DNA of 64,000 nucleotides from Stegostoma tigrinum. Taxonomy: Eukaryota. The stretch spans positions 31,327,141 to 31,391,140 of the forward strand of contig NC_081355.1 in NCBI RefSeq assembly GCF_030684315.1, in the 5' to 3' direction. The position numbers and the translations under genes were made by a program. Numbering within the stretch: position 1 is the stretch's first letter; every line of letters begins with the position of its first letter. Positions 3,335-62,655 of this stretch are shown piece by piece. The notes under the pieces are model-generated. The model did not search any database. It was given only the letters and a program-made list of their open reading frames with translations, and had not been told where the DNA came from.

Positions 3335-3530
3335 GGGTGTCCTAAATTTAACCACGGCAACATCCCTACTGTCAGAGGCCATTCATCAACCAACAAGCAC
3401 CTTCTCATGCAGTATAAATCATTCCTTTCAATATTCTTGGCAATTCTGCTTGATGAACGAAAAACAGATGCCTCGGTAGTGGTTTTTCTTAGCAGTATTC
3501 AACTTGCATGCTACCAAGTGACTGTTGGTA
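3335..3530 (+). mobile_element. Decayed 3' end of a Penelope-like element (family D)
   Basis: caaccaacaagcaccttctcatgcagtataaat...cttgatgaacgaaaaacag...cagtattcaacttgcatgctaccaag resembles a pLTR tail with an eroded (C)TGATGA...GAAA core. Confidence 0.4.
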
Positions 3531-3951
3531 TCCTGAATTAAGAACTCAAAATGAGCAATTTATTAAAAAGGTAAAAGCTAGCAAATCTTTATGAAGGGAA
3601 TGAGGATACAACTACTGCTCACATTTGAGTTGAGCATCTTAGCCACAACCAACCAAATAGCTCTGCCTGACAGTGGTCAAAAATAAGGATACAGTCAGTA
3701 GTGAGGGTTGATGTTTGATAGAGGCCCAAGATGACAGCCCTAACCCTCCCACCATTTAGTTTAAGCAGAGCCAGGAGGTTGAACAAGCTCATAATACAGA
3801 GACCAAAAAAGGTCTTTAAAAGAGGTGGCAACAGAGAGCTGGCTGCTATTAGCCCACGTATGAAAGCAAGCTTCTTGCCTGTAGATAACGTATACACAGT
3901 AAACAACAGGAATTCCACAGCATAGGAACAGAAGCTACAGCAGGTTACTCT

Positions 3952-4075
3952 AGATGCTGGAAATTAAGTAAAAGCAGAAAGTGCTTCAAAAAAGACCTGC
4001 AATGTTAACTCTGCTTACCACTTTGCAGATGCTATCTGATTCAAGTCCTCACAGCATTTGGAATTTTTACTTAAG
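3952..4075. mobile_element. Old mini fold-back Penelope-like derivative
   Basis: agatgctggaaat...aatgttaactctg...cagatgct...cagcatttg: same motifs as the hairpin elements at 26630 and 37821. Confidence 0.4.
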
Positions 4076-4499
4076 CTATTACTGGAAATATTCTGGTTAT
4101 AATCAGGTAGTTAAGATTAAAACTAAACCAGCAGTTTCAAATTGGACGATGAAGAGGATACATTGTGGCTGCCACACAGTTCCAACCAATCTGATTACGC
4201 CATCTCCTCAGCTGACAGCTGTAATCCATGTTGAATACCAGTTGAAAGAAGCAATAGGAATAGCAAGGACACCCAAGTGTGTTGTGGTAGCTCCAATACC
4301 CAAGAATGCCTCAGTAGCGTCACTAAGAAACCTGAATATCCTATCTGTTGGACTAGACCTACAGCAGGACGCTACAGAATCAAAATACTTGATCTGGCAA
4401 ATGAGGTGCTTTTCAGCCATCAGGGCAGCATCCTGTCTCTTGTAGTCTATTGCAGATTTATCAGAATGAGTGTCCTTGAAGCCAGCTTCAAAAACAAAG

Positions 4500-4680
4500 T
4501 GAATACTTTTGTGCATGAAAGCATGCAGGTGCAAGCAAAAAAAAAGGCAGCAAATGGAATTTTGGCCTTCAGTGCTTAGGGGTTGGAGCTTCAAAATAAG
4601 GGAAGTTATGTTATGACTACACAGGGTGGTATTGGGGCCATACTTGCATACTCTGTACAATTTACTCCAACAGAATAATT
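4500..4680 (+). mobile_element. CR1 LINE ORF2 fragment
   Basis: aaggcagcaaatggaattttggccttc...ggtattggggccatacttgcatactctgtacaattt corresponds to the KKANGILAF...LVRPHLEYCVQF region. Confidence 0.6.
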
Positions 4681-4789
4681 TATTGACACATCTATTTATG
4701 AAAATAGAGTAAAATGTATACAAGTTACCACAATTAATCCAGCATGCTTTTAATTACATACAAATCAGTAATGTATATAAAATTAAGGG

Positions 4790-4870
4790 ATTACAAGCTG
4801 GATGAAGACAGCAGGCCAAGCAGCAGAGGAGCAGGAAAGCCGACATTTTGGTCCTAGACCCTCTTCATTA
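4790..4870 (-). mobile_element. Penelope-like pLTR fragment (family A)
   Basis: gctggatgaagacagcaggccaagcagcagaggagcaggaaagccgacattttggtcctagaccc is homologous to 39509-39580 and 52560-52630. Confidence 0.8.
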
Positions 4871-5229
4871 AGGCATTAATTTAGACAGATTTCATTTTGT
4901 TCCAACCACTGCTCGATTCCATTAGTGGCTAAAGAACACTGCCTTATTCTACAGGTACTGAAGATGTCCCCAAAGCCACAACGAGGAAACACACAGAAGC
5001 AGCCCCCACTGCCACCGACAAGATCCAGAATGCCATCTCTGCCAAAAGCTTTAAATCACCACATCTAAGGCAGGCTATAATGGCACCGGAGGTCATCCAA
5101 AAAAATTCACTTGGCTGATTCCTGGTATAAAAAGGGTTGTCTTATCAAGAGCAGCTGAACAGGTTAGGTCTTTATTCATTCAAGTTCAGAAGAATGACAG
5201 GTGATCGAGTTAACTGTCATTAACTTGAG

Positions 5230-13807: not shown

Positions 13808-13824
13808 ATTTCATAAAGTAGTCC

Positions 13825-19045: not shown

Positions 19046-19164
19046 ACAGAACTTCAGGAAGGAAATGGTTGAATCTGTTAAAAGGATTTTAGTGCTACTC
19101 ACTCAAACCACCACTTATTTGCAATTAAAAGCACTGGATAGAATAAAAGGAGTATATGAGATAA

Positions 19165-19247
19165 TGCGAGACAACAAGGTGCACAGCCAGATGAACTCAG
19201 CAGGCCAAGCAGCAGAGGAGTAGAAAGCTGATGTTTCGGGCCTAAAC
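19165..19247 (-). mobile_element. Penelope-like pLTR fragment (family A) with TSD
   Basis: Homologous to the pLTR end; flanked by direct repeat tatgagataa (19155-19164 / 19248-19257). Confidence 0.8.
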
Positions 19248-20379
19248 TATGAGATAACACACAAGTTTTAGTTGCTTACGATTGCTTAAAGTTTTAGGCA
19301 CCAGGAAAAGAACCAACCCGAAAAGGGATAATACAATGCAAAATACATCAGTTACTGAAGACTTGATCTAACCCAGCCAGCTATAAAGAAGATGAATAAA
19401 AATCTAACTGGAATTGCAATAATCTTCGGAATAATGCCTTGATATGGTGTTAGCAATCATAGGTGAAATGCCATTCTGCTTCCTACGTTACAAAAAAGTT
19501 TTAAAGGGCCAAGCGCTCCATTGATGCTTATTTCAAACTTTAAAAAAGGTTTTAACTCCATTAAAAATGTCTAACCGATTTTTAAATGTACCTAGATCAA
19601 TTACCTCGACCCCAAGGCTTTTCTGATTTTAGGCCTCAGTTACTCCACTTCTTTAGTCGGAAGGTTTGAGCATAATGTGAATTGCAACACCTCGAAAGAC
19701 AATCTGACACTAACTTTCTTACCAGAAACAGTCCAAGTTTCAAAGAGAACATCAACTCAATCATTGTATTAACTAGTATTTCACAAGTTAATATAGAAAA
19801 ACAGCTATGGGGAAGGAATGGTAAAAATTTTTGGACACAGTTATTTTTAAATGCTCATGTTGACTTAGTTGAAAGATACCTGCCTTAATGTTGGACGGCT
19901 GGGGGTCGTTTGAATGATGGGCAGACTGAATTAACGTGGCGTTTGATAACTAAAAACAATTGGCCTTTTTTCACCTCTACGTGACCCGACAAACTTGTAT
20001 TTTTACGCTGTGAACCGATATGTCTTGTCTGTACTTGTTATTCGTTGTTGCCTTTTAGGACTTTTTACACCAGTGTGTAAACCTAGAAAGGGTTGAAAAC
20101 TAATCTCGGGGTGGAACCGGTAGGAGGTTTCGAACTGGTACAGTAACTGATAAAATCCAGTCCGGTGCAAACCGGGCACCAAGGCCAGGGTGCGAAAAAG
20201 AAAGAAAAAACCAGGCCTGTGCTCGAACTGGCCAGGACCTGGCTTAGAGTCACTAGGCCCTTTGGAAACACGCGGTTGCTTTCTCTACAGCACCGGGCCA
20301 GCGGCATGTTTGCTCAACCTCCCAGCCCCCTGCGCTGCAACACTAGGTGAATAGGAGAGACCTAGGTTAAGATCCCTGC

Positions 20380-23307: not shown

Positions 23308-23720
23308 TCTTTATTCATTCATTTGATGAGGGCATTTTTAGTTGCCCATCCCAGAGGGCAGTTAAGAGTCATCCACATTGCTGTGGTTCTGGAGTCACAT
23401 GTAGTCCAGACCAGGTAAGGATGGCAGTTTCCTTCCCTAAAGGACATGAGTGAACCAGATGGGTTTTTCCAAGAAAAAAACACACAACAGTTTTGTGATC
23501 AGAGATAATGGGAACTGCAGATGCTGGAGAATCTAAGTAACAAGGTGTGAAGCTGAATGTGTGGTGGTCTTTTGTTTTGTGGTCATTAACAGACTTGTAA
23601 TTCCTGATGTTTTTTGAATTCAAATTCCAACATAATGGGATTTGAACCCAGGTTCCAAAAACATTACCTATGTCTGTGGATTAAGAGTCCAATGACAATA
23701 CCACTAGGCCATTGCCTCTC
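23308..23720 (-). mobile_element. SINE nested in CR1
   Basis: Reverse complement of the SINE core at 18690-19045; itself interrupted by a PLE tail fragment. Confidence 0.8.
23502..23573 (-). mobile_element. Penelope-like terminal tail fragment (family A)
   Basis: gagataatgggaactgcagatgctggagaatctaagtaacaaggtgtgaagctg is the rc of the 53195-53250 tail; flanked by gttttgtg(a/g)tca repeats. Confidence 0.8.
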
Positions 23721-26530: not shown

Positions 26531-26629
26531 TTAATATTATTAATATTAATACGCTTTCAGAAATTTTTTGGATTCTCATTTATGCTAGCTGCATGCCTTT
26601 TCTCATATGACATAAAATGCCCTTTGATA

Positions 26630-26848
26630 TCAAAAACAAAGTTACTGGAAAAGCCCAGCAGGTCTGGCAACATCTGTGAAATGAAAAACAGAGTTAATAT
26701 TCCAGATCAGAACTGTGGAAGGGTCACTGGACTCAAAATGTTAACTCTGTTTTTTCCTTCTCAGATGCTGGCAGACCTGCTGAGCTTTTCCAGCAACTTT
26801 GTTTTCGTTCCTGATTTACAGCATCCGCAATTCTTTCAGATTTTATTT
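26630..26848 (+). mobile_element. Mini fold-back Penelope-like element (family C) with TSD
   Basis: Left ~75 nt is the rc of the right arm; unpaired 3' tail; decayed hammerhead ctgtggaagggtcactggactcaaaatgtt; TSD tgcc(c/a)tttgata at 26618-26629 / 26849-26860. Confidence 0.8.
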
Positions 26849-27029
26849 TGCCATTTGATAATATTGTTTAAGATAGCAACCATACATCCATGTACAAGCT
26901 GCTAAATTTGCAGGCAAATTGTGTGACTGTCTTGTACTACAATCAGGAGATAGAGGGAGAAAAGTTTGTAGAGTTTGACTACATTTAGAATATGATGTAC
27001 ATTACAACATACAATTCTGGGCTCACTGA

Positions 27030-31180: not shown

Positions 31181-31258
31181 CGGCCCGAAACGTCAGCTTT
31201 TCTGCTCCTAAGATGCTGCTTGGCCTGCTGTGTTCATCCAGCTCCACACTTTGTTATC
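31181..31258 (+). mobile_element. Penelope-like pLTR fragment (family A)
   Basis: ggcccgaaacgtcagctttt...ccagctccacactttgttatc, nearly identical to 53136-53212; contains only the 3' half of the hammerhead. Confidence 0.9.
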
Positions 31259-33460: not shown

Positions 33461-33492
33461 TTCAGCAGGGGGATGGGCACCAAAATTGTAGT

Positions 33493-36340: not shown

Positions 36341-37820
36341 GTTAGATGGGCTTGAGATCGGTATGACAGGTCGGCACAACATCGAGGGCCGAAGGGCCTG
36401 TACTGTGCTGTAATGTTCTATGTTCTAGTTCTAGAATATACAATTGAATGTTACTTTTTTTTTGCTAAGACTGAGTTGCGTTGAAGTTTTCAAAGGGATT
36501 TCCACTGCAAGACCTAACATGTTTTCTCACTGTATCTTCCAAATTCACCTAATTAAATATCTAACCCGCCATTGTGGTCTCACTCCTGTCTGATTCTGGT
36601 CCCATTATATTACATGCCATTCCTTAAACAACTCACACTCAGAACATATCTGCCAAAAGACCAATGCCCCTTGCACCCACAACATTTTTGAAAAGCCACT
36701 GTGTACCCAGATAATTATTAGCAATTCAGCATTGGCATTCACTAGCAATGTCATGGCACAGCAGCCACATTGTCAGGCTGTCCACATCATGTAGCCAACA
36801 TGGCTGACACTCCCTCATATGTGCAACCCCATCTCAGTCACAGTTTAAACACCAGGTCACACACTTTACCCATCTGTACCTATATCCCATCTGAACACCT
36901 CCTGAGTCAGTGCTACTATATTAATAATGGCCACTGTAAATCCATAGTTTATGGCTGAAGTCAACAGCCACAAAGTAAATCAGATTTCACCACCATAAGC
37001 AACAACTATTTTGGCTGCCCATGACTGTCTGCTGCACTACCTCCCTCCTAATGGAAGCATCTGTCAATGATGACCGACAGGATGGTAACTCCCTATGGCA
37101 GGTGAGCTCTGTCATGAAGAACAACACCTTTTTCCTCCCTCAGGTTATCATCCTCTTCCTCAGAAAGAGGGCCCTGTTCTCCTCGTCCTTCAGAATCCAG
37201 CAAATCCCCTCATTGCCTGCTCAAATTGTGCAGAGCACAGCATGTAGATGATGTGGCACATTCTGTAACATACAGGAAGGCTCCCTGGACAACCAGATCT
37301 TTAACAGTCCTTCATGGCCCTCAATGCCAGCGTATTCTTTCTTAAACACAGGGACAAAAATTGCCCACAGTACTCCAGGTTTGGCCTCACCAACATCTTG
37401 TACAGTTTTAACAAGACTTCCCTGTTTTTAAACTGAAAATACCTAGTATTAAAGGCCAAAATTCTTTTTGCCCTCTTAATTACTCACTGCACTTTCATGT
37501 TAATCTTTTGGGTTTCCTGCACAAAAATACACTGATCACTCTGTGCTGCAGTCTTTTGGAAACTGCAATTAAATATTAGTCTGCCTTTTGATTCCTCCAT
37601 TAAACTCCTTCTGCCAATTTTTGCTACTCACTCAATCTATCTGTATCATTTTGCAGGTTCTTTAAGACCTCATTTCAACATTTTCTTGTATCCACTTTTG
37701 TATTATCAGTAAATTTGGATATATAATACATTTTGCCCACTACACCTAATCATTAATGTAGGTCGTAATAATTAAGGTCCAGGAGCTGACCCTGCTGCAT
37801 TCCAGTAGCTAGTTTTTCCA

Positions 37821-37990
37821 GGAATAAAAACAGAAGTTGATGGAATAGCTCAAAGCTGGACCCAAAACTGGACCTGAAACATTAATTCTGATTTTTTTTC
37901 TTCACAGATGCTGCCAGACCTGCTGAACTTTTCCAGCAACTTCTGATTTTGTTCCTGATTTACAGCATCTGCAGTTCCTTCACTTTTTTT
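37821..37990 (+). mobile_element. Mini fold-back Penelope-like element (family C) with TSD
   Basis: Same right arm and tail as 26630-26848, with a short inverted left arm; TSD tagcta(g/a)tttttcca at 37806-37820 / 37991-38005. Confidence 0.8.
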
Positions 37991-38698: not shown

Positions 38699-39456
38699 CT
38701 AATAATCGTCAATACTGTGCGCTATTATTGTGTACATTACCCTCTTAGTTGGCTCCTTTTCAAATGCCTTCTGGAAATTCAAATACAACACATCTATTGG
38801 TTCTCATTTATCAATTCTGGCAGTTCTATCCTCAAAGAATTTCAGTAAATCTGTCAAAAATAATTTCCCTTTCATAAAACCATGTTGATTGCTTGTTTGC
38901 ATTAAGTTTTTTTTAAAGATTGTTATTTTTTCCTTATTAATGGACTTCAGCATTTTTACAACAACAGATACTAGGCTAATGAGCCTATAGTTTCCTGCTT
39001 TCTGTCTCTTTCCCTCTCAAAGCTTTTTTAATCAATTGGAATCCTCCTGGAACCCAGCAGGTTTTAGAATATTTCAACCAATACTTGCACTATCGCTATA
39101 GCCACTTACTTTAAAACCCTTAGATGCAGGCCACCAAGTCCTTGGTGTCTTGTCAACATTAAGTCCCAGTAGTTTGTCAAATACTTTGACTCTCATTTTA
39201 GAGACTATTACAAAATCTATCTTCCCTATAGCACCTTGCCTATCTGATATCTTTGGGATGTTTATAGTGTCATCTGCCTGAAAACACTGATTACATTTTC
39301 TGCAATTTCACTGTTTCCCATTATCAATTCCATAGTATCCACCAAGGATTCCATTCACAATTTGTCTACTTTCTGCTTATATACCTGTAGAAGCCCTGGC
39401 TGTTTTTGTTTTACATTCCTTGCTCTCCTTCAAACTGAGTTTACAGTTGTACTATG

Positions 39457-39864
39457 AGAGATGGTAGGAACTGCCAATGCTGGAGAACCTGAGATAACAA
39501 GGTGTAGAGCTGGATGAACACAGCAGGCCAAGCAGCATCAGAGGAGCAGGAAAGCTGATGTTTCGGGTCTGGATCCTTCTTCAGAAATGGGGGAGGGGAA
39601 GGGGATTCTGAAATAAATAGGGAGAGAGGGGGAGGCGGGTGGAAGCTTGATAAAGGTGCAGATGGATAAAACGGAAGATGGATAAAGGATAGAGGAGCTC
39701 TTTTATCCATCTTCCACCCGCCTCCCCCTCTCTTCCCTATTTATTTCAGAATCCCCTTCCCCTCCCCCATTTCTGAAGAAGGGTCCAGACCCGAAACATC
39801 AGCTTCCCTGCTCCTCTGATGTTGCTTGGCCTGCTGTGTTCATCCAGCTCTACACCTTGTTATC
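39457..39864 (-). mobile_element. Fold-back Penelope-like element (family A variant)
   Basis: 39494-~39690 is the rc of ~39700-39864; extra tail on the left; hammerhead-like ctgaagaagggtccagacccgaaacatc at 39773; decayed TSD ending tactatg at 39441-39456 / 39865-39880. Confidence 0.9.
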
Positions 39865-42019
39865 TTGCAATTCTACTATGTTGTGCTTGTTACCCTTAGG
39901 GGATCCATAACAATGAGATCTCTTATTAATTCTACCTGATTACATATGCCTATATCTAAAAATAACCAGATCCTGGGTAGATTATGCAACATACTGCTCC
40001 AGGAAACAATTGCTAATGCATTCTACAAATTTGTTTTCCATTTTGCCCATTTTGATCAGCTGATTTGTCTAGTTAATATGCAGATTTAAATCATCCATGA
40101 CAGTTGCAGTACCCTTCTTACACACCCTCATTATTTCCCAAATTTATACCTTTTTCTACAGTGAGGCAACTCTTTAGGGGTCAGATGATAACTGCAATCC
40201 ATGACTTCTTTCCCTTGCTATTTCTTATTTCCACCTAAACTAATCCATATCACAATGTATTGTATCTATATGACTACTTACCACCACAATATCTTCCTCA
40301 ATGAACAACACCACTGCAACGTTTTTTTCATTTTTGCCTATTTTTCTGGAACATCAAATCTCCTTGAATGTTGAGTTCCCAGTCCTGGTCACCCTGCAAC
40401 TATGTCTCTTTAACAGTTATGAAGGCATATTCACTTCTTTCTATTAATGCTGTCAAAACGTCTATCTTGTTACAGGTTCTGTGTGTCAAATAAACCGCTT
40501 TAAGCTTTGATTTTTTTATCCTTATTCCTTACTCTCCTAATTGCGCTTCCTGTCCCTACCCGTGACACTTCCACGAATGTTTGCTTCATCACTACCCTGT
40601 ATCTCTGTTCTCACAATTCTCTTTGACTTTTAAAATTCCCTTCGATTGAACCATCCCCCCACTAATTAATTAAAAGTCCTACCTACGACCACATTTATAC
40701 AATTCTTCAGGACACTTTTCCCAGCATGGTTCAAATGAAACCTGTTCCAGTGAAATCCTTCCCCAGTATTTGTGCCAGTGCTCCATGGGAAAGGACCCAT
40801 TTTTCCTGCACCAATCATTGAACAATACATTAACCCCTAATTTTATTTACCCTATGCCAATTTGCACATGATTCAGGTAGTAATCCTAAAATTATTACTT
40901 TAGTGATTCTGCTTTTTAACTAAGCACATGCTACTCCTAGTCCTTCAACAGAACCTCCTTCCTAAACTTACCTGCTGTGCCCACACACACACATACGGAC
41001 ACACACACACCGTTCCTCTCCAGTCCAGACAGAGGCTCATAACCTTGACACCAGGGCAGCAACATAGCCTAGAAGATCTCTTTCCTTGCTGCTTTGGATA
41101 ATCTATTCCCCTAACTATGCTATCCCCTAATAATATTACATTTTGCTCATGCCACCACCCCCTCCTACTCCTGCTACATTTGAATGGCATCATTTACCAT
41201 GGTGTTTTGGTCAGTTCGCTCATCTGCAGTCTATATCGTCGTTCAAAATGGGAGCAAGAACTTCATACCTATAGAAAAGCTAAATTCTGGATCCTAATAT
41301 CTGCCTCACCCACAGTCATACTTTTCTTTTCCTGATCACTAAGCAAGTTTGATGTAATTAATCAAAGAGGTGTAACTATTTCTTGAAATAGTGTCCTAAG
41401 TAAGTCTTACACTCCCTAATGTGTTGCAGCATCCCCAGTTCAAACTCAAACTCATCACCTCTTAAGACGAAATTTCTCAAGTCGCCAACATTTGGTGGAA
41501 ATGTAGATCACACCACTGTCCCCCAGTACCCGCATACTACATACAATACATTGGCTGCCTCTATTTCTATTGAATTAATTAATTGATATGTTAGACATTT
41601 TAAAAGTGAAGTTCCTACCTGTTCCTCAGCTCGAATAACTTTTCCTAGTTTAAACCAATTGACAAATCAATAGAGACACAGGAAATACCACTAATCACCT
41701 ATGTGGTCTTCTGTGAGGCCGCACTTTAGCTCTGACAGGTACAAACAGGTTTATGGGCTTTCTGTTGCTTGTTCTTATCTCTTGTTGACATTGCCCTGCT
41801 CTCACAGTTCTGTTCTTGCAGACTGCTTCACAGTGATGCTGACCTACTGCATACTCCAGTTTATATAATTAATAAAATGCATTGTTGCTATTTGGGTCTG
41901 GACTCATTTCTCTTAAAAGCTCAAACATGACCACACCACAGCTCTTACAACAATTACGAAGCATAATTATGCAAACAAAACATGCACTCCCTTGAAAATG
42001 AAACATTGAGGAATGATAT

Positions 42020-43950: not shown

Positions 43951-44758
43951 AACAATCGCTGATGCAAATTCTAATTCTAATTTAATTCAGTTCTAATACG
44001 TGCTTTAAATAGATCAATGAAATCAAGAATATCCTGACCTGCCCACAAAACCATGCATGCACTTCCCAACTTCTTTGTTCCAAAATAGCTTGAATTCTAG
44101 TTCTGTGGTGTAACTTTTTAACACAATTAAGAAAAATCCTTTTTAAGTGAATGTATCCATGAATGTTTTGAATGTTTTCTTATTAAACAAAATCTGAATC
44201 GGTACAGATTTTCTATATGTTGGTGTTTTATGTTTCCAACTTCCAGGTGTGGATAAAAGTTCCTTTTCAAAACTGAAATGTGAATTCACATTCAAGTAAA
44301 AGATTGCATACTTTCTGTTGTTTTAATAACTTGCCCGGAGAAGAGGCAATTATTTAAAATGTAAAGTTTAAGGAATAGAACTGTGAATGTCCCTGAGAAA
44401 AGAGGTGCTAAGCTGTTCAAAAACAGCCAGCTCAAAAACATTTAAAAGGAAAACATTTTTTGAACCAATCTATGTACAGTTTTGATCCGATGACTCAGAA
44501 GGCATATCTTTTGTGTTCAATCCAATGCCATGCTGCCTTCTGTATCTTTTACTAAAGTGCTCCAGATGGATACCTACAAGCAGTACCTCATGGTAGATGT
44601 CACTTGACAGTGCAAGTCAGGAAACACAGCATATGAGCATATGAACATTGCATTTCAATCCCAAGCATCCCCATTTTACAATAAGCCATTGAATGCATTA
44701 TCATTTACTTTATGAGTTATCTCAGTTATCTACTATGAACACAACTGCACTTATGTAT

Positions 44759-47141
44759 CATAACCCAGTATGAAGCGGATGAACACAGCAGGCGAAGCAG
44801 CATCTCAGGAGCACAAAAGCTGACCTTTTGGGCCTAGACCCTCCATCAGAAAGGGGGATGGGGAGAGGGTTCTGGAATAAATAGGGAGAGAGGGGAAGGC
44901 GGACCGAAGATGGAGAGAGGGGGAGGCGGACCGAAGATGGAGAGAAAGGAAGATAGGTGGAGAGGAGAGTATAGGTGGGGAGGTAGGGAGGGGATAGGTC
45001 AGTCCAGGGAAGACGGACAGGTCAAGGAGGCGGGATGAGGTTAGTAGGTAGGAAATGGACGTGCGGCTTGAGGTGGGAGGAAGGGATAGGTGAGAGGAAG
45101 AACAGGTTAGGGAGGCGGGGACAAGCTGGTTTTGGGATGCAGTGGGGGGAGGGGACGAGCTGGGCTGGTTTTGGGATGCAGTGGGGGAAGGGGAGATTTT
45201 GAAGCTTGTGAAGTCCACATTGATACCCTTGGGCTGCAGGGTTCCCAAGCGGAATATGAGTTGCTGTTCCTGCAACCTTCGGGTGGCATCATTGTGGCAC
45301 TGCAGAAGGCCCATGATGCACATATCGTCTGAGGAATGGGAGGGGGAGTTAAAATGTTTTGCGACTGGGAGGTGCAATTTTTTTATTGCAAACCGAGTGA
45401 AGGTGTTCTGCAAAGTGGTCCCCAAGCCTCCGCTTGGTTTCCCCAATGTAGTGGAAGCCACACTGGGTACAATGGATACAGTATACCACATTGGCAGGTG
45501 TGCAGGTGAACATCTGCTTAATATGGAAAGTCATCTTGGGGCCTGGAATGGGAGTGAGGGAGGAAGTGTGGGGGCAAGTGTAGCCCTTTCTGTGGTTGCA
45601 GGGGGAGGTGCCGGGTGTGGTGGGGTTGGAGGGGAGTGTGGAGCAGACAAGGGAGTCACGGAGAGAGTGGTCTCTCCGGAAGGCAGACAAGGGTAAGGAT
45701 TTCACCAACACCTTCCACCCCAACCTCAAGTTCACCTGGGCCATCTACAACACATCTCTCACCTTCCTGGACCTCTCAGTCTCCATCTCAGGTAACCAGC
45801 TAGCAACTGATGTCCATTTCAAGCCCATTGACTCACACAGCTACCTAGAATACACCTCCTCCCACCCACCCTCCTGCAAAAGTTCCATCCCCTATTCCCA
45901 ATTCCTCTGCCTCCGCCGCATCTGCTCCCAGGATGAGGCATTCTACTCCTGCACATCCCAGATGTCCACATTCTTCAAGGACCGCAACTTCCCCCTGCAA
46001 TGGTCGAGAACACCCTTGACTGTGTCTCCCGCATTTCCCACAACACATCCCTCACACCCCGCCCCCGCCACAACCACCCCAAGAGGATCCCCCTCGTTCT
46101 CACATACCACCCCACCAAACTCCGGATACAACGCATCATCCTCCATCACTTCTGCCATCTACAGTCCGACCCCACCACCCAAGATATGTTTCCATCCCCA
46201 CCCTTGTCCATCTTCCGGAGAGACCACTCTCTCCGTGACTCCCTTGTTCGCTCCACACTCCCCTCCAACCCCACCACACCCGGCACCTTCCCTTACAATC
46301 GCAGGAAATGCTACACTTGCCCCCACACTTCCTCCCTCACCCCCATCCCAGGGCCCAAGATGACTTTCCATATTAAGCAGATGTTCACCTGCACACCTGC
46401 CAATGTGGTATACTGTATCCACAGTACCCAGTGTGGCTTCCTCTACATTGGGGAAACCAAGCGGAGGCTTGGGGACCACTTTGCAGAATACCTCCGCTCG
46501 GTTTGTAATAAACAATTGCACCTCCCAGTCGTAAAACATTTTAACTCCCCCTCCCATTCCTCAGACGATATGTCCATCATGGGCCTCCTGCAGTGCCACA
46601 ATGATGCCACCCGAAGGTTGCAGGAACAGCAACTCATATTCCACTTGGGAACGCTGCAGCCCAATGGTATCAGTGTGGACTTCACAAGCTTCAAAATCTC
46701 CCCTTCCCCCACTGCATCCCAAAACCAGCCCAGCTCGTCCCCTCCCCCCACTGCATCCCAAAACCAGCTTGTCCCCGCCTCCCTAACCTGTTCTTCCTCT
46801 CACCTATCCCTTCCTCCCACCTCAAGCCGCACGTCCATTTCCTACCTACTAACCTCCTCCCGCCTTCTTGACCCGTCCGTCTTCCCTGGACTGACCTATC
46901 GCCTCCCTACCTCCCCACCTATATTCTCCTTTCCACCTATCTTCTTTTCTCTCCATCTTCGGTCCGTCTCCCCCCTCTCCCTATTTATTCCAGAACCCTC
47001 TCCACATCCTCCACTCTGATGAAGGGTCTAGGCCCAAAAGGTCAGCTTTTGTGCTCCTGAGATGCTGCTTGGCCTGCTGTGTTCATCCAGCTTCACACTT
47101 GGTTATCTTGGATTCTCCAGCATCTGCAGTTCCCATCATCT
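44759..47141 (+). mobile_element. Penelope-like retroelement (Neptune-type), 5'-truncated with a ~0.93 kb inverted arm
   Basis: 44760-~45695 is the rc of ~46200-47106; direct copy runs 45701-47141; TSD ctgc(a/t)cttatgtat at 44745-44758 / 47142-47155. Confidence 0.95.
45701..46700 (+). pseudogene. PLE polyprotein C-terminus: RT thumb, Cys linker, GIY-YIG endonuclease
   Basis: FHPNLKFT..LTFLDL..KPIDSHSYLEYTSSHP..IPYSQFLCLRRICS; RKCYTCPH linker; VVYCIH..FLYIGETKRRL..HFN..EQQLIFHLGTLQPNGI. One frameshift near 45995. Confidence 0.92.
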
Positions 47142-47756
47142 CTGCTCTTATGTATTGACAGTTTATATACTTATCAGTTTCTAAACAAGCATTGCACACA
47201 GTTTTTAGATTACTTTGTCCTTTGAATAGTGTGCATTTTTTTTGTTACTGGCTGTTCTTCTGGGTGATTTTCCCTCTCTGGGGTCTGGTGGCTAAAGGAA
47301 CATTTCTAAGCTATCTTTACTTCTTGCAACTCTTGGGCAGTTGCATATTGTTTGGTCACTTGGTTGATTTAATCAGGCATTTGACCATTAGATTCAATAT
47401 CTCTGCTGTGTCATTGACTTCCAGAGTGTGCAGAGCTGCTGCTTTTCAGTGGATCTGGAAGACTTAACATTGTGCTCCAGCATCCTCTGCTTTCTTTATA
47501 ACATTTGTTCCACTTGACAGCATGACAGCAATAAACATCTGTTTTCCCTGCTTTTGTATCATGTTCATATGGTGGCCATTACTGGAGTAACATACTTTGC
47601 AAATATTTTGAAGCAGATGGTAGCAACCTGAAGAAAATTCTCTGAAGTGGCCTCAACTGTTTTTGGGCTCAACTGTTACTTCCCAGTTGGCATTCATGAA
47701 AGCGTTCATAATCAAAGACAGCTGATAAGCAATCTTATTTGATTCCTTGAAGTCAA

Positions 47757-47845
47757 CCTCACCTGACGAAGGAGCAGCACTACGAAAGCTCGTGATTTCA
47801 AATAAACCTGCTAGACAATACCTGGTGTTGTGTGACTTCTGAATT
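47757..47845 (+). mobile_element. Penelope-like pLTR fragment (family B)
   Basis: cacctgacgaaggagcagcactacgaaagctcgtgatttcaaataaacctg..cctggtgttgtgtgacttctga is homologous to 62531-62617. Confidence 0.8.
47760..47794 (+). ncRNA. Minimal type I hammerhead ribozyme motif
   Basis: CAC-CUGACGA-A-GGAG cagca CUAC-GAAA-GC-UC-GUG: core boxes intact, stem I CAC/GUG, palindromic AGCU stem III, one mismatch in stem II. Confidence 0.65.
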
Positions 47846-49632: not shown

Positions 49633-52543
49633 AAATTCCACTGAACTGGAGTAAAATGCCTTAGAATTGATTCCACACTATCAATTTAAATTAATAAATG
49701 CACTAAATAATATTCTAAATTTGCATCGTAATGGGCAGAATCCACAAGGCAAAAACAAGCTTCTTAATTTCAGCTGCAGGAAAGGTAAGAGCGCGAGCCA
49801 GGGGGCAGCTGGGAAGGTAAGGTTCCTGTACAAAAAACTTGCCTCATGAATAGTGGAGTGAAGGCCGAGCAGGAAAAAATGTGGACATGGAGGCTATTGG
49901 GTCAGTGAACTATTATATGTTGGGCAGTGGCTAAACCTGAAACACTACATGCGTAGTATCTCCCACCCATTCTCCTCCTCTAGCCAAAAAGAAAGACTGT
50001 GTGAAGGGTTGGTAAGGTAAGCTTTTTTTTGCCTTACTCTTTATCTCTTTAGGTGTTCTAGAGAGAGGAATGGGAGCTAGAGCAGTCACATGCTTCTCTA
50101 ATAGGGTTGTTATCATGGGTGATTTCAACTTCCCTCATATCGATTGGAACCTCCTAAGCGCAAATGTGTCCAGGAAGGATTTCTGACTCAATATGTAGAT
50201 AGGCCAACATGCTTCTCTTGTTGGATGTGGGAGGTAAGAATCACTATTAGTATCCCTTCTGACTTCACCTGCGAGAAGTGCACCCAACTCCAGCTCCTCA
50301 CAGACTGCATTATGGAACTGGAACTGGATGAACTCTGGATCATTCCGGACGCTGAGGGGGTGATAGAAAGGAATTATAGGGAGGTAGTCACACCCAAGTT
50401 AAGGGATAAAGGTAGCTAGGTGACTCAGGAAGGGGAAAGGGAATAGGCAGTCAGTGCCGGATCCCCTGTGGCCGTTCCCCTCAATAATAAGTATACTTCT
50501 TTGGATATAGTTGTGGGGGATGACCTACCAAAGGAAGGCCATAGATGCCAGGTCTCTAGCACTAATCCTGGCTCTGTGGCTCAGAAGGGAATGGGGGAGA
50601 ATAGGTGGGTGATAGTAAAAGGAGATTCAATGTTTAGGGGGAACACACAGGAGATTCTGTGGTCATGAACGAGACTCCCGGAGAGTCTGTTGCCTCCCAG
50701 GTGCTAGGGTCAGGGATGTCTTGGATTGAGTCTACAGGATTCTTAAGGGAGAGCAGCCAGAAGTCATGGTACACATTGGTACCAATGACATAACTACTAA
50801 AAGGGATGAAGACCTTACAGGTGAATATAGGGAGTTAGGTTGGAAGCTAAAAGGCATGATTACTACTGGTGCTATGGGTGAGTGAGGCTCGGAATAGAGA
50901 GTGAATGCAGCTGAACACGTGGCTACAGAGCTGGTTTAGAAGGGAGGGCTTCAGATATGTGGATCATGGAGTACCTTCTGGGGAAGATGGGACCGGTACA
51001 AGAGGGACAGGTTGCACCTGAACTGGAGGGACACCAATCTCCTGGGCCGGAGGTTTGCTAGAGCACCTTGGGAGGGTTTAAACTAGTTTGGCAGGGGAAT
51101 GGGAACTGGAGTTATGGATCAGAGGATGGGGAAGCTGGTGTACAAGCAGATACAGCATGCAGAGAGTCTGTGAGGAAGGATAGGCAGTTGATAGAACAAA
51201 GTTGCAGTCAGTGTGACAGGTTGAAGTGTGTCTATTTTAATGCATCACAGCAGCAGAAAGGGAGGTCATCGAGGAGGGTTTGTCTATTGAGTCAGTATGG
51301 GTGGAAATCAGAAACAGGAAAGGAGCAGTCACTTTACTGGGAGTTTTCTATAGACCCCCGCCAATATCCACAGAGACACTGAGGAACAGATTGGGAGGCT
51401 GTTTTTGGAAAGGTGCAGAAGTAATAGGGTTGTTATCATGGGTGATTTCAACTTCCCTCATATCGACTGGAACCTCCTAAGCGCAAATAGTTTGGATGGA
51501 GCAGATTTTGTCAGGTGTGTCCAGGAAGGATTTCTGACTCAATATGTAGATAGGCTGATTAGAGGGGAGGCCATATTGGATTTAGTGCTTGACATCGAAC
51601 CAGGTCACATGTCAGATCTCTTAGTGGGAGACCATTTCGGTGATGGTGATCACAACTGCCTGACCTTTACTATAATCATGGAGAGGGATAAGCGCAGACA
51701 GTATGGGAAAGTATTTCATTGGGGGAGGGGGAATTACAATGCTATTAGACAGGAACTGCAGAGCATAAAATGGGAACAAATGTTCTCTGGGAAATGCATG
51801 ACAGAAATGTGGAGCTTGTTTAGGGAAAACTTGCTGTGAGTACTGGATAGGTTTGTCCCACTGAGGCAAGGAATTGATGTAAGGTGAAGGATTGTTGGAT
51901 GTCAAGACATGTGGAACATCTATTCAAGACGAAGAATAAAGCATACTTAAGGTTGAGGAAGCAAGGAATGGACAGGGCTTTAGAGGGCTACAAGGTAGCC
52001 AGGAAGGAACTGAAGAATGGACTTAGGAGAGCTAGAAGAAGGTATGAAAAAGCATTGGTGGGTAGGATTAAGGAAAACCCCAAAGCGTTCTATACTTGTG
52101 TGAGGAACAAGAGGATGGCTAGAGTGTGGGTCAAGCCAATCAGGGTTAGTGGAGGGAACTTGTGTGTGAAGTCGGAGGAGGTAGGGGAGGTTCTCAATGA
52201 ATACTTTGCTTCAGTATTCACCAGTGAGAGGGACCTTGTTGTTTGTGAGGACAGTGTGAAAAGGGCTGATATGCTCGAACAGGTTGATGTTAGGAAGGAA
52301 GATATGCTAGAAATTTTGAAAACTATGAGGATAAATAAGTCCCCAGGGCCAGATGGGATCTACCCAAGGTTCTAATGGGAAGTGAGGGAAGAGATTGCTG
52401 CCCCTTTGGTGATGATCTTTGCATCCTCACTGTCCAGTGGAGTAGTATCTGATGATTGGAGGGTGGAAAATATTATTCCCTTGTTCAAGAAAGGGAATAG
52501 GAATAATCCTGGAAATTACAGACGAGTCAGACTTACTTCTATG

Positions 52544-53255
52544 ATAACAAAGTGTGAATCCGGATGAACACAGCAGGCTAAGCAGCATCTCAGGAGCACA
52601 AAAGCTGATGTTTCGGGCCTAGACCTTTCATCAGAGAGGGGGATGGGGAGAGGGTTCTGAAATAAATAGGGAGAGAGGGGGAGGCAGACTGAAGATGGAT
52701 AGAGGAGAAGATAGGTGGAGAGGAGAATATAGGTGGGGAGGTGGGGAGGGGATAGGTCAGTCCAGGGAGGACGGACAGGTCAAGGAGGCGGGATGAGGTT
52801 GGTAGGTGGGAAATGGAGGTGTAGCTTGAGGTGGGAGGAGGGGATAGGTGAGAGGAAGAACAGGTTAGGGAGGCGGGGACGAGCTGGGCTGGTTTTGTGA
52901 TGCAGTGGGGGGAGGGGACAAGCTGGGCTGCCACACCTCCATTTCCCACCTACCAACCTCATCCCGCCTCCTTGGCCTCTCCGTCCTCCCTGGACTGACC
53001 TATCCCCTCCCCACCTCCCCACCTATACTCTCCTCTCCAGCTATCTTCTCCTCTATCCATCTTCGGTCCGCCTCCCCCTCTCTCCCTATTTATTTCAGAA
53101 CCCTCTCCACATCCCCCTCTCTGATGAAGGGTCTAGGCCCGAAACGTCAGCTTTTGTGCTCCTGAGATGCTGCTTGGCCTGCTGTGTTCATCCAGCTCCA
53201 CACTTTGTTATCTTGGATTCTCCAGCATCTGCAGTTCCCATTATCTCTGATCACA
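52544..53255 (+). mobile_element. Fold-back Penelope-like element (pLTR only, family A)
   Basis: 52544-~52820 is the rc of ~52933-53210; extra 3' tail; TSD agacttactt(c/a)tatg at 52529-52543 / 53256-53270 splits the CR1 NYRPVSLTS region. Confidence 0.95.
53119..53150 (+). ncRNA. Minimal type I hammerhead ribozyme motif, core intact
   Basis: CU-CUGAUGA-A-GGGU cuag GCCC-GAAA-CG-UC-AG; GUC cleavage triplet; palindromic ACGU stem III typical of dimer-forming PLE hammerheads. Confidence 0.75.
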
Positions 53256-54515
53256 AGACTTACTTATATGGTGGGCAAGTTACTGGAGAGGATTTTGAGA
53301 GATAGTATTTATGATTATTTGGAAAAGCACAGTTTGCTCAGAAATAGTCAACATGGCTTTGTGAGGGGTAGGTCATGTCTTGTTGATTTCTTTGAGGATG
53401 TGACAAAACACATTGATGAAGGTAGAGCATTGGATGTGGTGTATATGGATTTTAGCAAGGCATTTGATAATGTTCCTCATGGTAGGCTCATTCAGAAAGT
53501 AAGGAGGCATGGCATTCAGGGAAATTTGTCTGTCTGGATGCAGAATTGGCTGTCCAGTAGAAGTCAGAGGATGGTAGTAGATGGAAAGTATTCAGTGGAG
53601 CTCGATGACCAGTGGTGTTCTGCAGGTATCTGTTCTGGGACCTCTGCTCTTTGTGATCTTTATAAATGACTTGGATGAAGAAGTGGAAGGGTGGGTTGGT
53701 AAGTTTGCTGATGACACAAAGGTTGGTGGAGTTGTGGATAGTGCAGAGGGCTGTTGTAGGTTGTAACGGGACATTGACAGGATATAGAGGTGGGCAAAGA
53801 AGTGGCAGATGGAATTAAACCTGGAAATGTGTGATTCATTTTGGAAGATTGAATTTGAATGCCGAATACAGGGTTAATGGCAAGATTCTTGACAGTGTGG
53901 AGGAACAGAAGGATCTTGGAATCCATGTCCATAGATCCCTCAAAGTTGCCACCCAAGTTGATAGTGTTGTTAAGAAGGTGTACAGTGTATTAGTTTTTAT
54001 TGGTAGGGGAATTGAATTTAAGAGGCACAAGGTTATGCTGCAGCTCTATAAAACCCTGGTTAGACCATTACTTGGAATATTGTGTTCCATTCTGATCACC
54101 TCATTATAGGAAAGATGCAGAGGAGATTTACCAGGATGCTGCCCAGAGTGGAGTGCAGGTCTTATGAGGAAAGGTTGAGGGAGCTAAGGCATTTTTCATT
54201 GGAGTGAAGAAGGATGAGAGCTGACTTGATAGAGATGTACAAGATGATGAGAGGTATAGATAGAATGGATAATCAGAGACTTTTCCCAGGGCGGAAATTA
54301 CTATTACAAGGGGAAAAATTTTAAGGTGATCGGAGGAAGGTATAAGGGAGATGCCAGAGGTAGATTTTTAACACAGAGAGTGGCGGGTTCATGGAATGTG
54401 CTGCCAGCAGTGGTCGTGGAGTCAGATACATTAGGGGCATTTCAGCGACTCTTGGATAGGCACATGGATAATAGTAAAATGTAGGGTATGCTGGGTAGTT
54501 TGATCTTCGGATAAT

Positions 54516-58600: not shown

Positions 58601-58692
58601 TTTTTGTTCTCTTAGAGAGTGCTGTTGTGGTGCTGTGGTGAAATCCCTAACTCTGAGCTAGGGGGCATGGATTCAAGCCACACAGTGATGAT

Positions 58693-58910: not shown

Positions 58911-59421
58911 GTGGCCATGAGAGAAAAACATAATCCTGAAAAAATTCACTTGCAACAGTCATCTTTCAGTTGGGCTAAGCATTTCTGGTATCATGCCATT
59001 ATTTGGGAAGTTTGACTTGTTTGATCCTGCTGTTGAAGACTGGGCCCAATTTGTGGAAAGAATGTGTTTGTTTTTCTGGGCAAATAATGTTGGAGCAGAT
59101 GAAAAGCAATGAGTAATTCTTCTGATAGTTTGTGGACCTGCAGCCTTTTGGGTTATTACAAGCCTAACTTTCCCTGAGGCAACAATACTAAAATCTTTCA
59201 CGAGTTTACAGATTTAGTTAAGGAACATTATGACTGCAAGCCTCCTTTAATTCTTAGACACTATCAGTTCTCCTCAGCAATTCCAGAACCAGAAGAATGT
59301 GTATTAGGGTTTTTGATGAGGTTAAGAAGATTGGTAGAGATAGGATTTGTGACTAGGTTGAGAAGATTGGTAAAGGCATGTGACTTTGGTTTAACTGTTA
59401 ATGAGACACTAAGAGACTGTT

Positions 59422-59668
59422 TGATTGATTTATTTATTGTCACGTGTATTGAAACAGTGAAAGGCTATATTTACAAATGGTACAAGCAAGTAAAGGATGT
59501 ACAGATCAAAAAGACTTTGAGGCATACAGGTTACATTGCACAGGGCATGTGCTAGGCAAGATCAATGTTAGCAAGATCATCGTTATTTGAGGCTAGAGAG
59601 TCCAATCATCAGTCTGACAATGGCTGTGAAGAAGCTGTTCCTGAACCTGCTCGTGTGTGTTCAGGCTT
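59422..59668 (-). mobile_element. Rex1/Babar-like LINE 3' end inserted in Gypsy gag
   Basis: tgattgatttatttattgtcacgtgta tail and gaagaagctgttcctgaacctg..caggcttc body interrupt gag. Confidence 0.6.
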
Positions 59669-60989
59669 CTGATGTAACCAAGCAAAAGCTCCTGCTAGAC
59701 AAAGCCCAAATAGACTTCAAACAGGCACTGCAACTGACTTTATCACTAGAAAATTTGGCAAATGGAACATATGAGTTACACAGTTTGCCAATGAAAGTGA
59801 ACACCCTCACCAATCTGAGTGAGCTTTGGAAACACCACTTGAGTGAAGGCAATTGTATAGCCTCACTCAGGACATATCCTGAACAGAAGGACTCTGGGCC
59901 AGCCCACGGCAAAATGCCAAAATGGAACCAAGCCTCGGCCATATGGTTAATTTTTTTTAAGGATCTGGGGTGACAAGCCATTGTAATCGCTGCCTGTATG
60001 TGGACTCGAGACAGAGTTCCCCTGGACCTAAATTGGGTAAGAAAACTCATAGGTTGGTATCCAGAAGAGTGCACACCCTGGAAAGTCTGCCAATATCTCG
60101 TTGGAACAGTTAGATTGCTTAGCAACATGTAAATCAGAAGCAAGCAAAATAAATGTCTGGTTAAACAGTCACTGGTTCTAATGGACATTGATATTAGTGC
60201 GACTGTTTCAATGATCGCAGAATCCGTCTTTAAGAAAATTCACTCTGGACTGCGTCCCTTGAGTTTGTGCAAGATCTCAGCTTGATTGATAACCTATACC
60301 AGGAAACCTTTACAAATTAAGGGTACAACTTCAGTTCTCTTCCCTTATAAGATGCACTGGCTCAGTTATCCCTGATTGTAGTAAATGGCTTGGGCCCAAG
60401 GTGATGGTGCAAAATTGGTTGAGGAAGATTTACATTGATTTGCTCAACATTTTCCGATTTAGGAAAAGGCTGCCTGAATGAAGTCCTAATTAGCTAGCTG
60501 GACGACTTTCAGCAAGGTTGAGGAACTATCAAAGGAGCCAAGGCCACCTTGAATATTGACCGAGGAGCAATTCCATGATTCTGCAAAGACCACCCAATGA
60601 CATTTGCCTTATGGGCAAACGTAGAGGTAGAAATCAGAAGGGTAGAAAAGAAAAAGAATAATCAAACCAGTTCAGTCTATAGAAAGGGGAGCAGTAGTTG
60701 TACCAATTATAAAACATCTTGGGTTACTTTGCTTTTGTCAGGGTTTTAAACAAACGGTAAACCACTTTTGGCAGCTGAATAAATACCCAATTCCTTGCAT
60801 AAAGAATTTATATGCAAAGCTGGTGGAAAGGCAGTCCTTCACAAAGGTGGAGATGAGCACATGTATGTGCAATTGCGGTTAGTTGAGGGTTCCCAGAAAT
60901 ATGATACAATTAATACCCATGAAAATTTGTACCAATATACAAGACAGCCATCTGGGGTATTGTCAGCCTGTGCAATTTATCAGCAGACA

Positions 60990-61180
60990 ATGCAAACTAG
61001 AGATGTGATCTGTTTCATTTTGATGCAAGGAAAATGGGTGGAAGAATGAAACGAAAGGGTAAAAGAGCAGGAAGGATGAAATTACAAAAACTTAATAGAT
61101 CAATAAAAAGGGGTCAAGAAACGAGAGATCTGTCCAGGGTTGAGCATCAACAGCAGAATAACAAACATCTGTCCAAAGCA
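60990..61180. repeat. Inverted copy of 63159-63349 inserted in Gypsy RT
   Basis: 191 nt with 3 mismatches seen by eye against the rc of 63159-63349; removing it restores cagcagacaatg|gagaacattttac (QQTMENILQG). Confidence 0.95.
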
Positions 61181-61732
61181 GAGAACATTTTACAAGGTTT
61201 AATCCTGGTCACCATTTATCTAGATGTGCTAACAACAGGGGAATACAAATAAGGAGTAGATTTTGGACATAGTCCTCAGACATTTCTCCCAGGTGGGCAT
61301 ACGCTTGAGAAGGGAAATGTGTGTTCCAGGCAATCTAATTGACATGCTTGAGCCACAGAGTCAACAAGACCAGGTTACACCTGTGGGAAAATAAAGTGAG
61401 GGCAAACAAAGGTGCCCTAGCTGCCACATTTGTGCTAGAGCTTAAATCTTTCCTTGTGCTAGTGAATTATTAGGGAAAATTCATACATAACTTGGTCTCC
61501 ATCCTGGCACTATTGCATCAACTCTTAAGAAAGGGTCAGCCTTGAAAGTGGTCATGCAACCAAGTCATCATTTTCAGGGAAGTGAAGAAATAGCTATCAT
61601 CCTCTAAGGTGTTGGCACACTATGATCCCAAGCAAGATCTGGTACTGATATGTGATGCCTCCCTGTATAGCACTGGGGTGGTGTTGTCTTACAGTGGCTC
61701 AATGGAGAGGAACACCCAATAGCATATGCATC

Positions 61733-62655
61733 ATGGTCAGAAATCACACAATGCCAGGTTTTAGTCCAACAGCTTTATTTGAAAACTCAAGCTTTCAGAA
61801 CCTCAGTCCTTCTCAGGTGTTAATGAGAGAGGTAGTATCAGACACAGAATTTCTCAGTAAAAGATCAAAAGTTCGCACCATTAAGGATGTACTAGACAAA
61901 CCTAAGATGCTGTCAAGTCTTTCGTCAGTTAGAAGGTTTTAATTGATTATTATGTATATATAAATCCCCGAATTCCTTTCAGGTCACAGTCCCCACACAC
62001 CATGCTATACACTGTCTCTCATGGACATACTCACTCACTCAAACATATACACGTGCACACACAGTCTCCCTGCCACATTCAATCTGCCTTCACTTCCCTC
62101 CCACCTCCCCCCACTCCCAACACACACACGCTTTCTCCTGCCCCACACAAATGTGAATATGTATTTGCAGATACATTTTATTTTGTTCAAAAAGCATACA
62201 ATTTATAGAGTCAGTCAATGTGGCATTTTATAAGTTCCTACATTAAAAATAAAACCAGTCTGACTCCAAACTAAAACACAAATTCAAAACAAGGCCTCAC
62301 ACCTAACATGCATTGTCTGACCTAAAATGTCAACTCTTCTTTACACTGATAAAACCTTTTGTTCTCTCAGGACTGTGACTTGAAAGGAATTTGGGGATTT
62401 ATATATCCCTATTAATCATTTAAAACATCGTTACTGATTAAAGATTTAAGAGTATCTTATGTTTGTTTAGTATGGTGTGAATCTTTGATCTTTTACCTAT
62501 AGATTCTGTCTGGTACTGCTTCTCTCTCTAACACCTGAATAAGAATCGAGGCTCTGAAAGCTTGTGTTTTCAAATAAACCTGTTGGGCTATAACCTGGTG
62601 TCATTTGATTTTTGACCTTGTCCACCACAGTCCAACACTGGCACCTCCATGTCAT
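61733..62655 (+). mobile_element. Fold-back Penelope-like element (family B), non-coding
   Basis: 61735-61992 is the diverged rc of 62370-62618; CA-rich spacer; 3' tail ccagtccaacactggcacctcc; TSD tatgcatc at 61725-61732 / 62658-62665. Confidence 0.85.

What the first reader, a model, noticed from the sequence alone, without database searches (positions are those of the whole stretch)
3335..62655. Several Penelope-like families share one architecture: hammerhead, terminal stem, unpaired tail and fold-back arm
Seen: at least 12 insertions in about 4 sequence families (A: 4790, 19165, 23502, 31181, 39457, 44759, 52544; B: 47757, 61733; C: 3952, 26630, 37821; D: 3335). The families differ in sequence, yet each ends in a CUGANGA-A-stem-GAAA-palindrome motif followed by ~100 nt. 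Families A and C also keep an AGATGCTG...CAGCATC(T) stem. Only one copy has coding sequence; the rest are 70-900 nt pLTR-only units, many with their own TSDs. Established: PLEs carry minimal hammerheads and inverted pLTRs. Inference: a ribozyme-bearing, MITE-like non-autonomous retroelement system mobilised by GIY-YIG/RT partners, poorly described in sharks as far as I know.
Basis: partly seen in the sequence, partly recalled or inferred. Interest (0 to 1): 0.7.

Follow-up and report, generated by a model that had tools for sequence, protein, structure and literature searches.

The report
Twin-primed Penelope insertions, not MITEs
These hairpin-shaped inserts are separate, broken copies of a known kind of jumping gene (Penelope-like), not an amplified mini-element system; one arm carries a short tail that the other lacks and many arms stop at one fixed spot, which likely means both cut DNA ends copied the same RNA from two start points and ran off its predicted 5' end.

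Summary
Families A, B and C are pseudo-LTR (pLTR) ends of endonuclease-bearing Penelope-like elements (PLEs). A has Neptune-type motifs and is hugely abundant, with full-length ORFs elsewhere. D looks similar but no coding partner was found. The hammerhead holds at family level; only 1 of 13 window insertions passes a strict descriptor. In a 1.57-Mb position-chosen sample, fold-back junctions were not shared (3 near-matching pairs among 130, 2.2 expected). 88 of 123 fold-backs had target-site duplications (4% in controls). 130 of 148 carried the tail on exactly one arm (74 expected). Arm 5' ends pile up just before the hammerhead, about 30 nt after a TATA-like box. Likely mechanism: both nicked strands prime on one RNA at the two known PLE start sites, short arms run off its 5' end, and the cDNAs are end-joined. 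Rare true mini-elements exist as tandem deletion derivatives outside the window. The architecture is published. This scan reached the same twin-priming and promoter-wall readings before on other DNA, including this genome. No RNA start was tested.

The parts
3352..3531 (+). Family D copy, old; TATA-like box kept, hammerhead core decayed; PLE status inferred only
   Evidence: nhmmer E 8e-14; family consensus from 25 loci
3946..4075 (.). Decayed C-like fold-back remnant, no hammerhead core; right end approximate
   Evidence: C profile hits 3989-3946 (-) E 0.019 and 3994-4039 (+) E 2.4e-5
4790..4867 (-). Family A single tail-less arm, 5' end at -27; 7-nt duplication 4782-4788 / 4867-4873
19166..19247 (-). 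Family A single tail-less arm, 5' end at -18 (no CUGA); 10-nt TSD 19155-19164 / 19248-19257
23499..23559 (-). Family A single tailed arm, 5' end at +41 (no hammerhead)
26631..26845 (.). Family C fold-back: tail-less left arm (5' end -2), tailed right arm starting at the wall (-37); TSD 26623-26629 / 26854-26860
31182..31258 (+). Family A single tail-less arm, 5' end at -13; no clear TSD
37819..37990 (.). Family C: tailed right arm (37867-37980, 5' end -17) with a decayed inverted remnant (37852-37819)
39457..39873 (.). Family A (older subfamily) fold-back: tailed left arm (-107), tail-less right arm (-102), 34-nt spacer; TSD 39450-39456 / 39874-39880
44760..47145 (.). Family A1 fold-back with coding sequence: tail-less left arm (-889), tailed right arm (-1383) with decayed RT thumb, linker and GIY-YIG region; TSD 44750-44758 / 47147-47155
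47757..47845 (+). Family B single tail-less arm starting at the wall (-32)
52543..53255 (.). Family A1 fold-back inside a LINE-like RT sequence: tail-less left arm (-318), tailed right arm (-213); TSD 52529-52538 / 53256-53265; junction unique in the genome
53087..53092 (+). TATA-like box of the pLTR; predicted RNA start near 53117, the position where short arms of the family end
   Evidence: promoter function untested
53121..53148 (+). Minimal type I hammerhead core, the only window copy that passes the descriptor; predicted cut after 53148
53165..53230 (+). Terminal stem (53165-53172 with 53223-53230) bracketing the tail-less end at 53212
   Evidence: folding not better than shuffles (z -0.87)
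53213..53250 (+). 38-nt optional tail; in longer copies it runs straight on into the ORF N-terminus
61732..62654 (.). Family B fold-back: tail-less left arm (-206), tailed right arm with long CA-rich 3' UTR; TSD 61725-61732 / 62658-62665; inserted in a Gypsy-like pol fragment

Best explanation
These are independent insertions of ordinary endonuclease-bearing Penelope-like retrotransposons, and each fold-back was likely written by target-primed reverse transcription from both strands of one staggered cut. Shown here: a fold-back is one TSD-flanked event; one arm has the 30-40 nt tail and the other does not; either arm can be the longer; junctions are individual; short arms end at a sharp 5' limit just before the hammerhead. 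Established for one PLE protein in vitro (PMC11167929): it cuts and extends both strands and starts inside the RNA at two sites that delimit the tail. Inferred: one RNP, probably a dimer, uses the distal site on one strand and the proximal site on the other, on the same RNA. When it engages the leader copy of the site at the transcript's 5' end, both cDNAs run off the RNA within about 95 and 135 nt, like strong-stop DNA. When it engages the downstream pLTR, long and randomly truncated arms result. The two cDNA ends are then joined by microhomology or end joining. The non-coding short units would thus be by-products of autonomous elements, not a self-propagating mini-element class.
For: One tailed plus one tail-less arm in 130 of 148 scorable fold-backs (4 tail/tail, 14 none/none; 73.7 expected; p 1e-22), 100 of 108 in family A. 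At least 2 of the 4 tail/tail cases have an internal tail. Shared flank match of 7 nt or more in 88 of 123 fold-backs, against 4.3% of 3,034 shuffled pairs. The tail-less arm reaches further 5' in 62 of 130, the tailed arm in 42, and they are equal in 26; plain snap-back copying cannot give the first class. Near-identical junction pairs: 3 observed, 2.2 expected. Wall: 94 of 357 family-A arms end at -35..-28 and 7 at -60..-37; family C 38 and 7 of 143. A TATA-like box lies 30 nt upstream of the wall in all 6 references tested. Arms are both short or both long more often than chance (78/22/6/5, Fisher p 2e-13). Both arms carry the same rare deletion junction in the two tandem mini-elements. In L022 an internally deleted long arm runs from the 3' pLTR through the ORF start and stops at -30. 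The tail continues into the ORF N-terminus.
Against: No RNA 5' end was measured, so the wall as transcription start rests on motif spacing. No cap-derived G was found before wall arms (19 of 85, against 30 of 161 elsewhere). Of three non-tandem copies whose tail runs into the ORF, only L022 starts at the wall; L229 starts near +35 and L223 near -45, upstream of it. About half of insertions are single arms (257 of 409), and their TSD rate is lower (20 of 73 tailed, 30 of 60 tail-less). Arm-arm similarity could also come from subfamily timing or later gene conversion. Locally templated junction inserts are only weakly enriched (19 of 59, against 21% in shuffles). The D. virilis Penelope promoter was reported as internal and TATA-less (PMC2377424). 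The 14 none/none fold-backs are unexplained, though 9 are in the older family C where tails decay.
Confidence: 0.7

Rival explanations
1. MITE-like non-autonomous system: fixed fold-back mini-elements are transcribed and amplified as units by PLE proteins.
For: 170 of 258 family-A insertions are short and non-coding and most fold-backs have TSDs. Two tandem deletion derivatives were mobilised without an ORF, and one junction occurs at 3 loci.
Against: No junction sharing beyond chance (3 against 2.2 pairs among 130). The 71 printed short family-A junctions differ in end points or inserted bases. The 52544 junction has 1 match in the genome. Lengths grade up to near full length.
Confidence: 0.05
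2. Self-priming (snap-back), possibly on an antisense template as proposed for rotifer PLEs, makes a palindrome from one priming event; later asymmetric central deletions shape the arms.
For: Proposed in PMC3846280 from junction palindromes. 38 of 152 junctions overlap by microhomology. A1 arms of one insertion are closer to each other than to other copies (0.053 against 0.086). Central deletion of palindromes is recalled knowledge.
Against: It gives no reason for the tail on exactly one arm, and a tail-less first strand cannot template a tailed arm. The tail-less arm is the longer in 62 of 130. Many wall-to-wall junctions contain inserted bases, as expected for two free ends.
Confidence: 0.15
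3. Twin priming is right, but the wall is not the transcription start: it is a processing site or an RT stop at the edge of the hammerhead or the pyrimidine tract.
For: In D. virilis an intron ends at the 5' edge of hammerhead helix I (PMC4209133). Family C has an AG at the wall. No cap-G signal.
Against: Family A has no AG there, many family-C arms extend through the AG (-36 to -34), and no shared upstream exon follows the wall. RT stalls would be expected at the 3' side of a structure (inference). TATA spacing recurs in unrelated sequences.
Confidence: 0.1

Closest known systems
EN+ PLE insertion with inverted 5'-truncated pLTR, one-sided 30-40 bp tail and TSD (PMC3846280, Adineta Pen2a; PMC8557442)
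   Same: Inverted arm, tail on one end, TSD of similar length, TATA/Inr-like motifs in the pLTR, heavy 5' truncation.
   Different: Here the one-tail rule is counted (130 of 148) and the 5' ends show a sharp wall. The passages read call the tail optional or often one-sided, and PMC3846280 favours self-priming.
PAc, Poseidon of Anolis carolinensis (PMC11167929)
   Same: Two internal RT start sites delimiting the tail; tail is the start of the element body; hammerhead just upstream; both strands cut and extended; predicted dimer.
   Different: Family A has the CX2-5CxxC linker that Penelope/Poseidon lack, and its ORF starts after the tail, not in stem II. The parts read do not link start-site choice between strands or explain inverted arms.
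Minimal hammerheads of metazoan PLEs (PMC4209133)
   Same: CUGANGA, extra nucleotide before stem II, G10.1-C11.1, palindromic 15.2-16.2, short stem I, pairs on opposite strands 100-700 bp apart.
   Different: Sequences are new family members; stem I is only 2 bp in family A; cleavage was not tested.
Non-LTR retrozymes as non-autonomous PLE derivatives (bioRxiv 10.64898/2026.07.22.740005)
   Same: The tandem 301-bp and about 440-bp units in L127 and L107 carry one hammerhead per unit, and the paper reports retrozymes in one chondrichthyan.
   Different: None of the 13 window insertions is a tandem array. L127 and L107 are visibly internal deletions of family A1 inserted as TSD-flanked fold-backs.

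Membership tests
EN+ Penelope-like elements | Single ORF with RT followed by GIY-YIG endonuclease with the CCHH-type cysteines | tested here: met
   Family A: 810-aa frame with DKG, YIDD and VVYCxxCxxC...YIG; Pfam RVT_1 E 9e-5 and GIY-YIG E 0.002, both below curated cut-offs. B and C: decayed EN homologues upstream of their pLTRs.
EN+ Penelope-like elements | pLTR with optional 30-40 nt tail that is the start of the element body | tested here: met
   Bimodal tail score in A, B and C; tail runs into the ORF in family A.
EN+ Penelope-like elements | Inverted 5'-truncated copy and TSD | tested here: met
   152 fold-backs among 409 insertions; TSD in 88 of 123.
EN+ Penelope-like elements (family D) | Coding partner | tested here: inconclusive
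   No ORF joined to D in 25 loci. Hammerhead consensus, TATA-like box and 4 inverted pairs with unequal 3' ends suggest a PLE.
Neptune clade | CX2-5CxxC motif in the RT-EN linker (shared with Nematis; PMC8557442) | tested here: met
   CNRRKCYTC at residue 633 of the L041 frame; a similar motif in C copy L111.
Neptune clade | RT phylogeny with reference clades | not tested
   No reference set was fetched; Neptune against Nematis is not resolved.
Minimal type I hammerhead | Core boxes and helices I-III in family consensus, with compensatory changes | tested here: met
   Cores intact in 5 of 7 references, one base lost in C2 and stem III C-to-T in A4. Two-sided changes at 9 of 11 pairs across families, on rows picked for having the motif, with B and D rows misaligned.
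Minimal type I hammerhead | Self-cleavage | not testable with these tools
   Only an indirect hint: 16 family-A arms end at 0..+2 of the predicted cut against 48 over 30 neighbouring positions (p 1.5e-4); none in family C (1 against 43).
MITE-like amplified mini-element | Fixed structure with a junction shared by many copies | tested here: not met
Non-LTR retrozyme | Tandem units each with a hammerhead | tested here: not met
   Not met for the 13 window insertions. Met by L107 and L127 outside the window.

The most novel reading that the evidence does not exclude
Penelope-like elements integrate by coupled twin priming: one RNP assigns the two RT start sites to the two nicked strands, and priming on the leader of the element's own transcript yields strong-stop-like cDNAs. 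These account for most genomic copies, record the RNA's 5' end to the base, and by template jumps may build the pLTR itself. In family A a minority of templates had been cut by the hammerhead in vivo.
Probability: 0.45. Interest if true: 0.68.

Novelty: new member of a known kind. Interest (0 to 1): 0.42.

Why it matters
How PLEs form their inverted and tandem ends is stated as open in PMC8557442 and PMC11167929. A genome with several hundred thousand copies and many intact ORFs turns that into counts. The one-tail rule and the 5' wall give exact predictions for the existing in vitro assay and for 5'-end RNA mapping. For annotation, these hairpins should be labelled PLE ends, not MITEs or miRNA precursors.

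Tried and rejected
Rfam gave no hammerhead hit; its miRNA hits at 39567-39790 are all below gathering score and reflect the palindrome. DNA searches of the own genome with the A end and the D copy found nothing and only self; the tool skips common words. Pfam found nothing in the decayed window ORF pieces of 44760. Terminal-stem folding is no better than shuffles in 6 copies (z +0.5 to -1.4). The 7-bp core is unchanged across A1-A3 and C, so it shows no covariation there; B has a different 9-bp stem in the same place. The cap-G test was negative; a few single-G joints at the wall appear in run X9, in 12 of 175 rows shown, too few to use. RNA: no RNA holder listed, only assembled contigs, so no start site or expression could be tested. 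L113 was dropped as an A reference because it is a C body with an A insertion. No B or D copy passed the strict descriptor. Paper searches for Penelope + shark + Neptune, + twin priming, + strong-stop, + cryo-EM/dimer and + truncation/TSS listed nothing on these two patterns beyond the papers cited. Subscription papers, Repbase/Dfam records and supplements were not seen and may already describe these families.
Full report
Setting. The window is G000:C2:31327141-31391140 of a 3.2-Gb genome. Positions below count from the predicted hammerhead cut (0). For statistics I used 157 position-chosen 10-kb stretches (1.57 Mb, 33 kb of N). Twenty are adjacent to the window and the rest are spread over the large contigs. 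Loci fetched by similarity were used only for references.

Observation. All 13 places are real repeat copies. The hammerhead is a family-level feature: a reference-free descriptor gave 91 hits against 0 in five shuffles, but only one lies in the window. Between families the stems change in a compensatory way. Stem III is C-G in A, C and E and G-C in B. The first pair of stem I is U-A in A and C, C-G in B and D, and A-U in E. The tool count gave 76% of cells paired against 59% shuffled, with two-sided changes at 9 of 11 pairs. That count is biased: the 19 rows were picked for carrying the motif, and the B and D rows are misaligned. The terminal stem does not fold better than chance, and its 3' strand sits in the tail.

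What the families are. Family A is an EN+ PLE with DKG, YIDD, a CX4CxxC linker and GIY-YIG. A piece of its endonuclease has 235,652 first-look candidates. About 75 of the 150 best N-terminal matches, counted by eye, lie in open frames over 1,000 aa. C is a relative of A with coding copies. B has a distant EN homologue and a long 3' UTR. D is old, with 96 exact pattern matches against 0 for the control and no partner in 25 loci. The sample holds 409 insertions (277 A, 117 C, 15 B), roughly 850,000 genome-wide by simple scaling. The weakest old C hits are uncertain, and one nested locus (L191) is counted twice.

MITE test. Among 130 fold-backs with one tailed and one tail-less arm, 3 pairs had near-identical end points against 2.2 expected, and those pairs differ in subfamily or inserted bases. 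The window's 52544 junction matches once in the genome. Amplified fold-back units are therefore not supported. Two real non-autonomous units turned up outside the window: tandem internal deletions of A1 in L127 (301 bp) and L107 (about 440 bp), each inserted as a TSD-flanked fold-back. The L127 junction occurs 7 times at 3 loci. They fit the retrozyme definition but are 2 loci among about 409 insertions.

End rules. Of 152 fold-backs, 148 could be scored (3 ambiguous and 1 at an edge were dropped): 130 had one tail, 4 had two and 14 had none, against 73.7 one-tail cases expected. All 5 clear window fold-backs follow the rule. TSDs of 7-18 nt flank 88 of 123 (12 of 135 dropped for imprecise ends), against 4.3% in controls. 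Either arm may be longer (62, 42, 26 equal). The 5' ends form a wall: 94 of 357 A arms at -35..-28 against 7 at -60..-37, and 38 against 7 of 143 in C. B has too few arms to test. A TATA-like box starts 62-66 nt upstream of the cut in all six references tested, so a start 30 nt later falls at -32 to -36. The two arms are both short or both long far more often than chance. Contigs of run X9, of unrecorded kind, show loose ends at the same wall (53120) and at the tail-less end (53212-53214). A smaller peak at the predicted cut exists in A (16 against 48 over 30 positions) but not in C; I tested it after reading earlier scan notes.

Mechanism. The PAc protein cuts and extends both strands and starts at two internal RNA sites that bound the tail (PMC11167929). 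The counts here fit one RNP using one site per strand on one RNA, with end joining of the two cDNAs. The tail is the start of the element body, so every transcript that starts in the pLTR carries the start sites within its first 135 nt. Priming there would give run-off cDNAs that stop at the RNA's 5' end. Against this: no RNA start was measured, there is no cap-G excess, only 1 of 3 ORF-entering copies starts at the wall, and single arms outnumber fold-backs. The rival is self-priming with later deletion (PMC3846280).

What is known. Seen: PMC4209133, parts 1-2 of 4; PMC11167929, parts 1-2 of 4; bioRxiv 10.64898/2026.07.22.740005, parts 1-3 of 5. Keyword passages only: PMC8557442, PMC2377424, PMC3846280, 10.1101/443036. 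No supplements were read. Inverted arm, one-sided tail, TSD, minimal hammerhead, pLTR TATA/Inr motifs and non-autonomous derivatives are all in print. The counted one-tail rule and the promoter wall were not found in my searches. I had noted both. That call then showed that the scan had reached the same readings on other DNA, which is not independent support.

Verdict. These are new members of a known kind. The value lies in mechanistic signatures that can be tested directly. Interest 0.42.

Noticed in passing
L127:4977-6183 and L107:6763-8434: Tandem, internally deleted A1 mini-elements (301 and about 440 bp; TATA-like box, hammerhead, tail, ORF start), each inserted as a one-tail fold-back with a 12-14 nt TSD; the L127 junction is at 3 loci genome-wide.
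   Followed up: partly
L027:6234-6279, L029, L089, L099, L113, L169, L176, L190, L216: A fifth hammerhead family (E) with a 6-7 bp stem II, also forming inverted pairs; no hit in the window.
   Followed up: partly
window 60990-61180 and 63159-63349: 191-nt inverted repeat, 98% complementary, 1,978 nt apart, around part of a Gypsy-like pol fragment that also holds the B insertion; unexplained.
   Followed up: no
window 53213 to 53117-53120, run X9: Contig joints from the tail-less end back to the wall (14-29 contigs each), and tail-less end to tailed end on opposite strands. Could be template jumps, concatemers or assembly-graph artefacts. L068:7426-7922 shows a wall-length tail-less arm directly in tandem before a longer tailed arm.
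   Followed up: no
G000, one search list: Many copies with open frames of 1,000-1,200 aa and the same score at the N-terminus, suggesting a very young A1 subfamily.
   Followed up: no
window 32526-36077 and 50099-54271: Two LINE-like copies (endonuclease and RT by Pfam for the first); the 52543 fold-back interrupts the second.
   Followed up: no
   Followed up: no
Family D consensus, L144-L168: Two CCAAT boxes and a TATA-like box directly upstream of the hammerhead.
   Followed up: no
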